Made by a program: the position numbers and the translations under genes. Under the pieces are notes generated by a model. It saw only the letters and a program-made list of their open reading frames with translations. It was not told where the DNA came from and made no database searches. A stretch of DNA of 64,000 bases from Escherichia coli. GTDB taxonomy: Bacteria > Pseudomonadota > Gammaproteobacteria > Enterobacterales > Enterobacteriaceae. Location: NCBI RefSeq assembly GCF_009931435.1, contig NZ_CP043414.1, one strand, 5' to 3'. Of the stretch, positions 20,500 through 23,863 are shown piece by piece. Within the stretch, counting starts at the first letter, position 1. Each line of letters starts with the position of its first letter.

Positions 20500-20500
<1 letters not shown>
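19862..20500 (-). CDS. purN: Phosphoribosylglycinamide formyltransferase 1
   Basis: 212 aa, MNIVVLISGNGSNLQAIID...; start overlaps the purM stop. Confidence 0.96.
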
Positions 20501-21555
<1,055 letters not shown>

Positions 21556-21600
21556 TTACTTGCGGTAGAAAAATAAAATTCGGCGCAATTCTAACAGGGA

Positions 21601-21616
21601 AAGCAAACGTTTGCGA
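21601..21616. promoter_or_regulatory. PurR operator of purMN
   Basis: AAGCAAACGTTTGCGA, a near-perfect match to the PurR palindrome, about 65 bp upstream of the purM start. Confidence 0.65.
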
Positions 21617-21791
21617 GACTGCTTTACACAACCTTTTTGCACGTCTTTTCCCCAGGCGCGCGGCGAAAGAATACTTGTACCAGGGCAAAGGATCGTTTTC
21701 GGATGGAATAATCTTCTTCCATAACCATTTGAATACAAAATAACTTTATCTCAAACCGTTATCATTTTGACTAAAGTCAACGAAAATAATA

Positions 21792-21835
21792 TTGCCGCCT
21801 TGAAGAAAGGAGGTATAATCCGTCGATTTTTTTTG
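21792..21835 (+). promoter_or_regulatory. upp promoter with T8 initiation tract (UTP-sensitive reiterative transcription)
   Basis: -35 TTGCCG (21792-21797), 16 bp spacer, -10 TATAAT (21814-21819), then GATTTTTTTTG at 21825-21835. Confidence 0.65.
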
Positions 21836-21861
21836 TGGCTGCCCCTCAAAGGAGAAAGAGT

Positions 21862-22488
21862 ATGAAGATCGTGGAAGTCAAACACCCACTCGTCAAACAC
21901 AAGCTGGGACTGATGCGTGAGCAAGATATCAGCACCAAGCGCTTTCGCGAACTCGCTTCCGAAGTGGGTAGCCTGCTGACTTACGAAGCGACCGCCGACC
22001 TCGAAACGGAAAAAGTAACTATCGAAGGCTGGAACGGCCCGGTAGAAATCGACCAGATCAAAGGTAAGAAAATTACCGTGGTGCCAATTTTACGTGCCGG
22101 TCTGGGGATGATGGACGGTGTGCTGGAAAACGTTCCGAGCGCGCGCATCAGCGTCGTCGGTATGTACCGTAATGAAGAAACGCTGGAGCCGGTACCGTAC
22201 TTCCAGAAACTGGTTTCTAACATCGATGAGCGTATGGCGCTGATCGTTGACCCAATGCTGGCAACCGGTGGTTCCGTTATCGCGACCATCGACCTGCTGA
22301 AAAAAGCGGGCTGCAGCAGCATCAAAGTTCTGGTGCTGGTAGCTGCGCCAGAAGGTATCGCAGCGCTGGAAAAAGCGCACCCGGACGTCGAACTGTATAC
22401 TGCATCGATTGACCAGGGACTGAACGAGCACGGATACATTATTCCGGGCCTCGGCGATGCCGGTGACAAAATCTTTGGTACGAAATAA
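21862..22488 (+). CDS. upp: Uracil phosphoribosyltransferase
   Basis: 208 aa from [20 protein letters not shown]...; Shine-Dalgarno AAAGGAGA. Confidence 0.96.
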
Positions 22489-22503
22489 AGAATAAAAATT
22501 ATT

Positions 22504-22533
22504 AAAGCCGACTTTAAGAGTCGGCTTTTTTTT
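22504..22533 (+). terminator. Intrinsic terminator/attenuator between upp and uraA
   Basis: AAAGCCGACT / AGTCGGCTTT stem followed by T8. Confidence 0.7.
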
Positions 22534-22573
22534 GAGTAAAGCGCCTATAACACATAATACAGAGGAATATACT

Positions 22574-23863
22574 ATGACGCGCCGTGCTATCGGGGTGAGT
22601 GAAAGACCGCCACTTTTACAAACAATCCCGCTTAGTTTGCAACATTTGTTCGCCATGTTTGGTGCAACCGTCCTGGTGCCCGTCTTATTTCATATTAACC
22701 CGGCGACTGTACTGTTATTCAATGGTATCGGGACGCTGCTGTATCTCTTCATCTGTAAAGGGAAAATCCCGGCTTATCTTGGTTCCAGCTTTGCCTTTAT
22801 TTCACCGGTATTGTTACTGTTGCCGTTAGGGTATGAAGTCGCGCTGGGCGGCTTTATTATGTGCGGCGTGCTGTTCTGCCTGGTTTCTTTTATCGTGAAG
22901 AAAGCGGGGACCGGCTGGCTGGACGTGCTGTTTCCACCTGCGGCAATGGGCGCAATCGTTGCCGTCATCGGTCTGGAGTTGGCGGGCGTAGCTGCCGGTA
23001 TGGCAGGTTTACTCCCGGCTGAAGGGCAAACGCCAGACTCCAAAACCATCATCATCTCCATTACCACGCTGGCAGTCACGGTTTTAGGTTCCGTGCTGTT
23101 TCGTGGTTTCCTGGCAATTATCCCGATTTTAATTGGCGTGCTGGTGGGCTACGCGCTCTCTTTCGCAATGGGAATTGTCGATACTACGCCGATTATTAAT
23201 GCTCACTGGTTTGCGCTGCCAACTCTCTATACGCCGCGCTTCGAGTGGTTTGCCATTCTGACTATTCTGCCAGCGGCGTTAGTGGTTATTGCCGAACACG
23301 TAGGGCACCTGGTGGTAACGGCTAATATCGTCAAAAAAGATCTGCTGCGCGATCCAGGTCTGCACCGTTCGATGTTTGCTAACGGCTTGTCGACCGTGAT
23401 CTCCGGCTTCTTTGGCTCCACGCCAAATACTACCTACGGGGAAAACATTGGCGTGATGGCGATCACCCGTGTTTACAGTACCTGGGTTATCGGCGGGGCG
23501 GCGATTTTCGCTATCCTGCTTTCCTGCGTCGGTAAACTGGCTGCTGCTATCCAGATGATCCCATTGCCGGTGATGGGCGGCGTTTCGCTGCTGCTTTATG
23601 GTGTTATCGGTGCTTCCGGTATTCGTGTTTTGATCGAATCGAAAGTGGATTACAACAAAGCACAGAACCTGATCCTGACTTCTGTCATTTTGATCATCGG
23701 TGTCAGTGGCGCGAAGGTAAACATCGGCGCGGCGGAGCTGAAAGGTATGGCGCTGGCGACCATCGTCGGTATCGGCTTAAGTTTGATCTTCAAACTGATT
23801 AGTGTGCTGCGCCCTGAAGAAGTGGTGCTGGACGCAGAAGACGCGGATATAACAGACAAATAA
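22574..23863 (+). CDS. uraA: Uracil:H+ symporter
   Basis: 429 aa from [21 protein letters not shown]... Confidence 0.96.

What the first reader, a model, noticed from the sequence alone, without database searches (positions are those of the whole stretch)
21814..21835. T8 tract immediately after the upp -10 hexamer
TATAAT is followed by CGTCGATTTTTTTTG. A run of eight T residues at the initiation region is the hallmark of UTP-sensitive reiterative transcription, which I recall as the established control mechanism for upp.
Basis: partly seen in the sequence, partly recalled or inferred. Interest (0 to 1): 0.2.

Follow-up and report, generated by a model that had tools for sequence, protein, structure and literature searches.

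The report
Known UTP-sensing upp promoter T-tract
This is the well-studied E. coli upp promoter, where a run of eight T's at the transcription start lets RNA polymerase sense UTP and switch the uracil-salvage gene down when pyrimidines are plentiful; it is real and conserved, and was described in 1997.

Summary
TATAAT lies at 21814-21819, then CCGTC, G (21825), A (21826), T8 (21827-21834) and G (21835). The upp start codon follows 27 nt later, at 21862.

The window is E. coli chromosome (ppk-purN-purM, then divergently upp-uraA-hda). GATTTTTTTTG is letter for letter the published upp-uraA initially transcribed region. Tu & Turnbough (1997) and Cheng et al. (2001) showed that it gives pyrimidine control through UTP-sensitive choice between two start sites, G6 and A7, coupled to non-productive reiterative transcription.

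- **Across species:** all 80 Enterobacterales upp loci fetched carry TATAAT-N5-(G/T)A-T7-9 (T8 46, T7 25, T9 9; GA in 79), while the flanking sequence varies.
- **Within E. coli:** of 5,424 complete genomes, 4,940 have the exact T8 allele, 440 T7 and 21 T9.
- **Alternatives:** no hairpin abuts the tract, so it is not a terminator, and no Rfam family matches it.

It needs one refinement: the control is start-site switching plus stuttering, not stuttering alone. Interest is low. Side notes: natural T7/T9 and G6-to-T alleles, and a conserved terminator-like hairpin between upp and uraA.

The parts
21792..21797 (+). -35-like hexamer TTGCCG of the upp promoter (16-bp spacer to the -10)
   Evidence: consensus scan (10 of 12 matches). 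Weakly conserved across species.
21814..21819 (+). -10 hexamer TATAAT (perfect consensus)
   Evidence: Present in all 80 Enterobacterales loci.
21820..21824 (+). Discriminator CCGTC (positions 1-5 after the -10)
   Evidence: Always C-rich and 5 nt long in the 80 loci: CCGGC 35, CCCGC 27, CTCGC 12, CCGTC 6.
21825..21825 (+). G6, the alternative start site whose transcripts are productively elongated; favoured at low UTP
   Evidence: Position read. Its role comes from Tu & Turnbough 1997 as cited, with details from my own knowledge of that paper. G in 79 of 80 loci.
21826..21826 (+). A7, the start site favoured at high UTP; its transcripts stutter (AUUUUn) and are released
   Evidence: Position 7 after the -10 is the modal start-site position (PMC5730371). 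A in 80 of 80 loci. The role is from the literature.
21827..21834 (+). T8 tract (A8 in the template), the slippage-prone homopolymer
   Evidence: Length is 7-9 in all 80 loci. In E. coli: T8 4940, T7 440, T9 21 of 5424 genomes.
21835..21835 (+). First non-T base (G); adding it ends the chance to stutter
   Evidence: G in 65, A in 13 and C in 2 of the 80 loci.
21850..21854 (+). Shine-Dalgarno AGGAG of upp, inside a 37-nt leader with no significant structure
   Evidence: Leader fold z = +0.50.
21862..22488 (+). upp coding sequence (uracil phosphoribosyltransferase, 208 aa)
   Evidence: RefSeq annotation of an identical locus. ORF, whose GTG at 21835 is a mechanical upstream extension.
22504..22533 (+). 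Terminator-like hairpin plus T8 between upp and uraA; likely limits how much of the promoter's output reaches uraA
   Evidence: Fold -15.1 kcal/mol, z = -4.16. Hairpin plus T-run found in 74 of 80 loci.
22574..23863 (+). uraA (uracil permease), second gene of the upp-uraA unit
   Evidence: Annotation. A uraA-like ORF follows upp in 79 of 80 loci. Called 'upp-uraA' in PMC7039003.

Best explanation
This is the sigma-70 promoter and initially transcribed region of E. coli upp(-uraA), and it senses UTP without any regulatory protein. RNA polymerase bound at TATAAT can start at G6 (21825) or A7 (21826). When UTP is high, starting at A7 is favoured, because the first bond, pppA-U, needs UTP. The all-A:U/U:A hybrid then slips backwards on the A8 template. 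UMP is added repeatedly to give AUUUUn, and the product is released without entering upp. When UTP is low, starting at G6 is favoured. These transcripts largely avoid slippage, pass the tract (next base G, 21835) and are elongated into upp, so uracil salvage is induced only under pyrimidine limitation. Shown here: the sequence, its identity to the published element, and its conservation. Taken from the literature, not tested here: start sites, UTP dependence and the transcript ladder.
For: The sequence at 21814-21835 is TATAAT-CCGTC-G-A-T8-G. It is the only promoter-like site upstream of upp. The window is 100% identical to E. coli chromosomes with upp annotated. PMC7039003 quotes the upp-uraA region as 5'-GATTTTTTTTG and states that RNA made by stuttering at this promoter does not return to normal synthesis. 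PMC12709180 describes TSS switching stimulated by excess UTP at codBA and upp, and non-productive reiterative initiation. PMC6245113 lists upp among the first UTP-dependent cases. Position 7 after the -10 is the modal TSS. All 80 Enterobacterales loci have TATAAT-N5-(G/T)A-T7-9, with GA in 79. Information content is near maximal from about -21 to the end of the tract and low in the flanks. 4,940 of 5,424 E. coli genomes have the exact T8 allele. No hairpin abuts the tract and the leader is unstructured.
Against: Nothing in the sequence argues against it. Caveats: the two primary papers were not readable in the held library, so the mechanistic detail (the fates of G6 and A7 transcripts, the effect of tract length) rests on secondary citations and my own recall of the abstracts. 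No transcript data were examined here. 8.5% of E. coli genomes carry T7 or T9, and one species (E. albertii) lacks G6, so the exact published configuration is not universal.
Confidence: 0.95

Rival explanations
1. The U-rich 5' end of the mRNA serves mainly as a post-transcriptional element, for example a ribosomal protein S1 or Hfq landing site that enhances translation, rather than as a transcription-initiation sensor. It could also do this in addition.
For: The tract sits in a short (37-nt), unstructured leader 15 nt upstream of the Shine-Dalgarno sequence. U-rich leaders can enhance translation (general knowledge).
Against: What is conserved is the fixed geometry relative to the -10 (N5-GA-T7-9 in 80 of 80 loci). 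The distance to the ATG ranges from 25 to 163 nt. The published experiments explain the regulation at the level of initiation.
Confidence: 0.1
2. The homopolymer is a DNA-level contingency tract: replication slippage changes its length and thereby heritably resets upp expression.
For: T7 (440), T9 (21) and 23 other alleles occur among 5,424 E. coli genomes. T7 occurs on both upstream haplotypes, which suggests recurrent change or assembly error.
Against: The length stays within 7-9 in every species examined. There is no ON/OFF reading-frame or spacer logic. Some calls may be homopolymer sequencing errors. Published mutants, as I recall Cheng et al. 2001, show only graded loss of regulation when the tract is shortened.
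Confidence: 0.03
3. The T run is the tail of an intrinsic terminator or attenuator acting on transcripts that come from upstream.
For: Runs of T follow terminator hairpins; a true example lies 700 nt downstream at 22504-22533.
Against: No terminator-like site was called here. The only weak hairpin (21793-21815, -9.3 kcal/mol, z = -1.19) ends 11 nt before the tract. The upstream gene purM is divergent.
Confidence: 0.01
4. It is a chance A+T-rich run in an intergenic region, with no function.
For: T8 runs are as frequent in the window as in shuffles (6 against 6.2).
Against: 80 of 80 loci conserve the motif in fixed register with the -10 while the flanks diverge. There is published functional dissection.
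Confidence: 0.01

Closest known systems
E. coli K-12 upp(-uraA) promoter (Tu & Turnbough 1997, PMID 9352914; Cheng, Dylla & Turnbough 2001, PMID 11114920)
   Same: It is the same locus and the same sequence. 5'-GATTTTTTTTG as quoted in PMC7039003 equals window 21825-21835. K-12-derived laboratory strains match the promoter region at 100% (H38, H46).
   Different: Nothing in the core element. This strain differs from others only at polymorphic positions in the -35 and spacer region.
E. coli codBA promoter (Qi & Turnbough 1995, PMID 7500333)
   Same: The same logic: UTP-sensitive start-site switching coupled to non-productive reiterative transcription in a T tract.
   Different: A shorter tract (5'-ATTTTTTG, T6) and a different operon (cytosine permease and deaminase). 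It is not in this window.
E. coli pyrBI promoter (Liu, Heath & Turnbough 1994, PMID 7527789)
   Same: UTP-dependent stuttering at initiation that yields non-productive transcripts.
   Different: Only T3 (5'-AATTTG). It is triggered directly by high UTP without start-site switching, and it acts together with a downstream attenuator.
E. coli carAB P1 (Han & Turnbough 1998)
   Same: UTP-dependent reiterative transcription after a G start (5'-GUUUGC).
   Different: T3 only, a weaker effect (about threefold), and it is combined with protein regulators.
Bacillus subtilis pyrG (Meng, Turnbough & Switzer 2004, PMID 15252202)
   Same: A nucleotide-sensing homopolymer at the start site.
   Different: A G tract that is CTP-sensitive. 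The stuttering is productive: the extended 5' end prevents attenuation, so it switches the gene ON rather than aborting transcription.

Membership tests
UTP-sensitive reiterative-transcription / start-site-switching promoters (upp, codBA type) | A sigma-70 promoter whose start window (6-9 nt after the -10) falls on the element | tested here: met
   TATAAT at 21814-21819 with TTGCCG at -35 and a 16-bp spacer. G and A lie at positions 6 and 7 after the -10. Position 7 is the modal TSS.
UTP-sensitive reiterative-transcription / start-site-switching promoters (upp, codBA type) | A homopolymeric T tract in the non-template strand beginning directly after the start base | tested here: met
   T8 at 21827-21834 directly follows A7. 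T7-9 in 80 of 80 related loci.
UTP-sensitive reiterative-transcription / start-site-switching promoters (upp, codBA type) | Two adjacent alternative purine start sites (G then A) ahead of the tract | tested here: met
   GA at 21825-21826. GA in 79 of 80 loci. Use of both as start sites is from the literature only.
UTP-sensitive reiterative-transcription / start-site-switching promoters (upp, codBA type) | Sequence identity to the experimentally characterised element | tested here: met
   5'-GATTTTTTTTG in PMC7039003 equals window 21825-21835. The locus is E. coli upp.
UTP-sensitive reiterative-transcription / start-site-switching promoters (upp, codBA type) | A UTP-dependent AUUUUn ladder, a start-site shift with UTP level, and pyrimidine-dependent expression | not testable with these tools
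   These need in vitro transcription, 5'-end mapping or reporter assays. They were reported for this sequence by Tu & Turnbough 1997 and Cheng et al. 2001 (cited). The primary texts are not held.
Intrinsic terminator / attenuator | A G+C-rich hairpin ending 0-2 nt before the T run | tested here: not met
   No site was called at 21827. The nearest weak stem ends at 21815, z = -1.19.
Phase-variable (contingency) homopolymer | Frequent length variation among close relatives that switches expression state | tested here: inconclusive
   T7 in 8.1% and T9 in 0.4% of E. coli genomes, on both haplotypes. The range is confined to 7-9, sequencing error was not excluded, and no expression data are available.
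Curated RNA families (Rfam 15) | A covariance-model match over the leader | tested here: not met
   No match at 21800-21870, even at E <= 1.

The most novel reading that the evidence does not exclude
Natural alleles of the element act as evolutionary settings of the sensor. These are T7, T8 and T9 within E. coli and across Enterobacterales, and loss of the productive G6 start in E. albertii and one E. coli O8:H8 strain. Different lineages would then have heritably different basal levels and induction ranges of uracil salvage and uptake, possibly affecting 5-fluorouracil sensitivity or growth in pyrimidine-poor niches.
Probability: 0.25. Interest if true: 0.25.

Novelty: already known. Interest (0 to 1): 0.08.

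Why it matters
It is a textbook case of gene regulation with no repressor, in which RNA polymerase itself reads the UTP pool through start-site choice and transcript slippage. Finding it here only confirms that the window is E. coli and that the first-stage reader recognised a real regulatory element. The -10/N5/GA/T7-9 architecture is invariant over 80 Enterobacterales species. Tract length varies only between 7 and 9. Rare natural alleles (T7, T9, G6-to-T) could be used to test how tract length and the G6 start tune the sensor in nature.

Tried and rejected
1. I tried to read the primary papers and reviews: PMC179593, PMC94869, PMC2415746 and PMC3078970. None is held, so mechanistic detail rests on secondary papers and on my own recall, marked as such.
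2. The supplement search of the 2025 NAR nascent-RNA paper for upp data found no files held.
3. The Rfam scan of 21400-22700 at E <= 1 gave only four sub-threshold hits. All lie on the upp-uraA intergenic hairpin and none on the promoter or leader.
4. The terminator reading of the T8 tract is rejected.
5. Leader RNA structure is not significant (z = +0.50).
6. I asked whether the E. coli T7 allele is tied to one upstream haplotype. It is not: 241 exact T7 against 2,582 exact T8 on the G haplotype, and about 199 T7 on other backgrounds. So it is either recurrent or partly an assembly artefact. Several T7 assemblies share near-identical coordinates, which suggests at least one true clone.
7. The G6-to-T plus T8 allele has zero exact matches in E. 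coli.
8. There is an apparent dyad between the conserved A-run/GCGG upstream of the -10 and the CCGC-GA-T-run downstream in non-Escherichia species. By eye I saw no consistent complementary changes between variants, and the upstream arm is not transcribed, so I left it as an unexplained side note.
9. One paper-search call failed because a term was too short, and one find call failed on phrase length.

Full report
**What is in the sequence.**

Reading window 21400-22300 gives ...AATATTGCCGCCTTGAAGAAAGGAGG-TATAAT-CCGTC-G-A-TTTTTTTT-G-TGGCTGCCCCTCAAAGGAGAAAGAGT-ATG.
- TATAAT occupies 21814-21819.
- The five discriminator bases CCGTC occupy 21820-21824.
- G is at 21825 and A at 21826.
- The eight T's are at 21827-21834 and the next G is at 21835.

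Its quoted string lost one C. The tract also begins at the eighth base after the hexamer rather than 'immediately' after it.

The consensus scan finds a single promoter-like site in 21500-22700: TTGCCG, a 16-bp spacer, then TATAAT, giving 10 of 12 matches.

The ORF list shows a 217-codon frame from GTG 21835. The annotated start of the gene is the ATG at 21862, preceded by AGGAG at 21850-21854.

**What the locus is.**

The 348 bases spanning the purM-upp intergenic region match 5,424 of 5,426 complete E. coli genomes, many at 100%, and always on the chromosome. In an identical genome the region is annotated ppk1, purN and purM on one strand, then upp (uracil phosphoribosyltransferase), uraA (uracil permease) and hda on the other.

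**Is it more than chance?**

A T8 run alone is not unusual: the window has six against 6.2 expected from dinucleotide shuffles. The composite TATAAT-N7-T7 occurs once against 0.10 expected, even with one mismatch allowed.

The real test is conservation. A scan of one genome per species returned the 80 closest upp loci. They span Escherichia, Citrobacter, Enterobacter, Kosakonia, Pantoea, Erwinia, Yersinia, Dickeya, Brenneria, Rahnella, Hafnia, Edwardsiella and others. Every one of the 80 carries TATAAT-N5-(G/T)-A-T(7-9) upstream of upp:

| Feature | Count among 80 loci |
|---|---|
| Tract length | T8 46, T7 25, T9 9; none shorter or longer |
| Two bases before the tract | GA 79, TA 1 (E. albertii) |
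| Discriminator (always 5 nt, C-rich) | CCGGC 35, CCCGC 27, CTCGC 12, CCGTC 6 |
| Base after the tract | G 65, A 13, C 2 |

Among 75 distinct sequences anchored on the hexamer, information content is near maximal from about 10 bases upstream of the -10 through the tract. It is low further upstream and downstream. The distance from the tract to the ATG varies from 25 to 163 nt. What is conserved is therefore the register with the -10 hexamer, not with the ribosome-binding site. That is what an initiation-level device predicts.

**What is known about it.**

PMC7039003 quotes the upp-uraA initially transcribed region as 5'-GATTTTTTTTG, identical to window 21825-21835. It states that at pyrBI, codBA and upp-uraA long reiterative RNAs are made, and that once stuttering starts, synthesis does not return to canonical transcription.

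[quoted passage not shown] It calls the outcome non-productive reiterative initiation.

PMC6245113 lists upp among the first UTP-dependent cases. PMC5730371 places the modal start site 7 bp downstream of the -10 and cites Tu & Turnbough for the effect of NTP concentration on start-site choice.

The primary papers are Tu & Turnbough 1997 (J Bacteriol 179:6665, PMID 9352914) and Cheng, Dylla & Turnbough 2001 (J Bacteriol 183:221, PMID 11114920). I know them only through reference lists, because their texts are not held. The following comes from my own recall of their abstracts, not from a tool result:
- Starts occur at G6 and A7, counted from the -10.
- High UTP favours A7, whose AUUUUn products (n up to more than 50) are not extended.
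- Low UTP favours G6, whose transcripts mostly escape.
- Shortening the tract from 8 towards 3 progressively abolishes regulation.

**How it most likely works.**

The element is a protein-independent UTP sensor built from four parts:
- a perfect -10 that fixes the start window;
- a five-base C-rich discriminator that places G and A at positions 6 and 7;
- two competing start bases with different second-nucleotide requirements (ATP after G6, UTP after A7);
- an A8 template tract on which an all-A:U hybrid can slide.

Steps shown here are the anatomy, its identity to the characterised element, and strong purifying selection on each part. Steps inferred from the literature are start-site usage, UTP dependence and the fate of the transcripts.

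**Alternatives were checked.**
- No terminator-like site is called at the tract.
- The nearest weak stem ends 11 nt upstream of it (z = -1.19), and the 51-nt stretch from G6 (the 37-nt leader plus the first 14 nt of upp) folds no better than shuffles (z = +0.50).
- No Rfam family matches the leader, even at E <= 1.

An extra role of the U-rich 5' end in translation cannot be excluded, but nothing requires it.

**Variation within E. coli.**

I used 70-base exact-match queries, for which a single difference drops identity below 99%.

| Allele | Genomes of 5,424 | Call |
|---|---|---|
| T8 (the window's allele) | 4,940 | 29 |
| T7 | 440 | 30 |
| T9 | 21 | 31 |
| Other | 23 | by subtraction |

- T7 occurs on both common upstream haplotypes: 241 exact T7 against 2,582 exact T8 on the 'G' haplotype.
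- Several T7 assemblies share almost the same chromosomal coordinate, which suggests at least one true clone. Homopolymer assembly errors may also contribute.
- A G6-to-T change is present in E. albertii NBRC 107761 with T8. It is also in one E. coli O8:H8 strain together with T7.
- No E. coli genome has G6-to-T with T8.

These alleles are natural counterparts of the published mutants and could modestly retune the sensor. That is the only reading with any novelty, and it is untested.

**Verdict.**

The refinement is that the control is start-site switching coupled to non-productive stuttering. The element has been known and mechanistically dissected since 1997-2001. Interest is low.

Noticed in passing
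window 22504-22533 (+), between upp (ends 22488) and uraA (starts 22574): A strong terminator-like hairpin AAAGCCGACTTTAAGAGTCGGCTTT followed by a second T8 run (-15.1 kcal/mol, z = -4.16). A hairpin plus T-run was found within 130 nt of the upp stop in 74 of 80 Enterobacterales loci, nearly all examples shown having the GCCGACT...AGTCGGC core plus T8, and uraA follows upp in 79 of 80. It sits inside what the literature calls the upp-uraA operon, so it may set the upp:uraA ratio. Whether read-through depends on UTP is unknown to me.
   Followed up: partly
window 21601-21616 (palindrome core 21603-21614), purM-upp divergent intergenic region: AAGCAAACGTTTGCGA contains the perfect 12-bp palindrome GCAAACGTTTGC. 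From my own knowledge it resembles the PurR operator consensus, and it lies upstream of purM (annotated start 21537, minus strand). A near-identical GCAATCGTTTGC is kept at the same place in the Serratia-like loci L044 and L055.
   Followed up: partly
L002:2409-2509 (Escherichia albertii NBRC 107761); L084 (E. coli O8:H8 16F5M1D1): The productive start base G6 is replaced by T (TATAATCCGTCTA-T8 in E. albertii; the same change with T7 in one E. coli strain). No E. coli genome has G6-to-T with T8. On the published model this should remove the escape route at low UTP. How upp is expressed in these strains is unexplained.
   Followed up: partly
window 21827-21834 and the matching site in 5,424 E. 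coli genomes: Tract-length polymorphism within the species: T8 4,940, T7 440, T9 21, other 23. T7 occurs at about 8% on both upstream haplotypes. Part may be homopolymer assembly error, but several T7 assemblies look clonal.
   Followed up: partly
L004-L081, about 10 bases immediately upstream of the -10 hexamer (window equivalent 21804-21813): Outside Escherichia the promoter spacer next to the -10 is a nearly invariant A5-7-GCGG block, as conserved as the -10 itself. It is roughly mirror-symmetric with the downstream CCGC-GA-T-run. E. coli has GAAAGGAGG instead. No function is known to me, and I saw no clear complementary changes between variants.
   Followed up: no
L044, L055 (81 nt) and L070 (163 nt) between the T tract and the upp ATG: Three loci have a much longer leader than the median of 29 nt. 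L044 (labelled Serratia marcescens) and L055 (Candidatus Symbiopectobacterium) are nearly identical to each other and contain an extra GACGCACC...GGTGCGTC-like hairpin segment. This may be an inserted element or an added regulatory layer.
   Followed up: no
window 21835-22488 and 20500-21552 (ORF list): The mechanical ORFs start upstream of the annotated starts. For upp, the GTG at 21835 is the base right after the T tract, against the annotated ATG at 21862. For purM, the ORF starts at GTG 21552 against the annotated start at 21537. The extensions are artefacts of taking the longest ORF, not evidence for longer proteins.
   Followed up: yes
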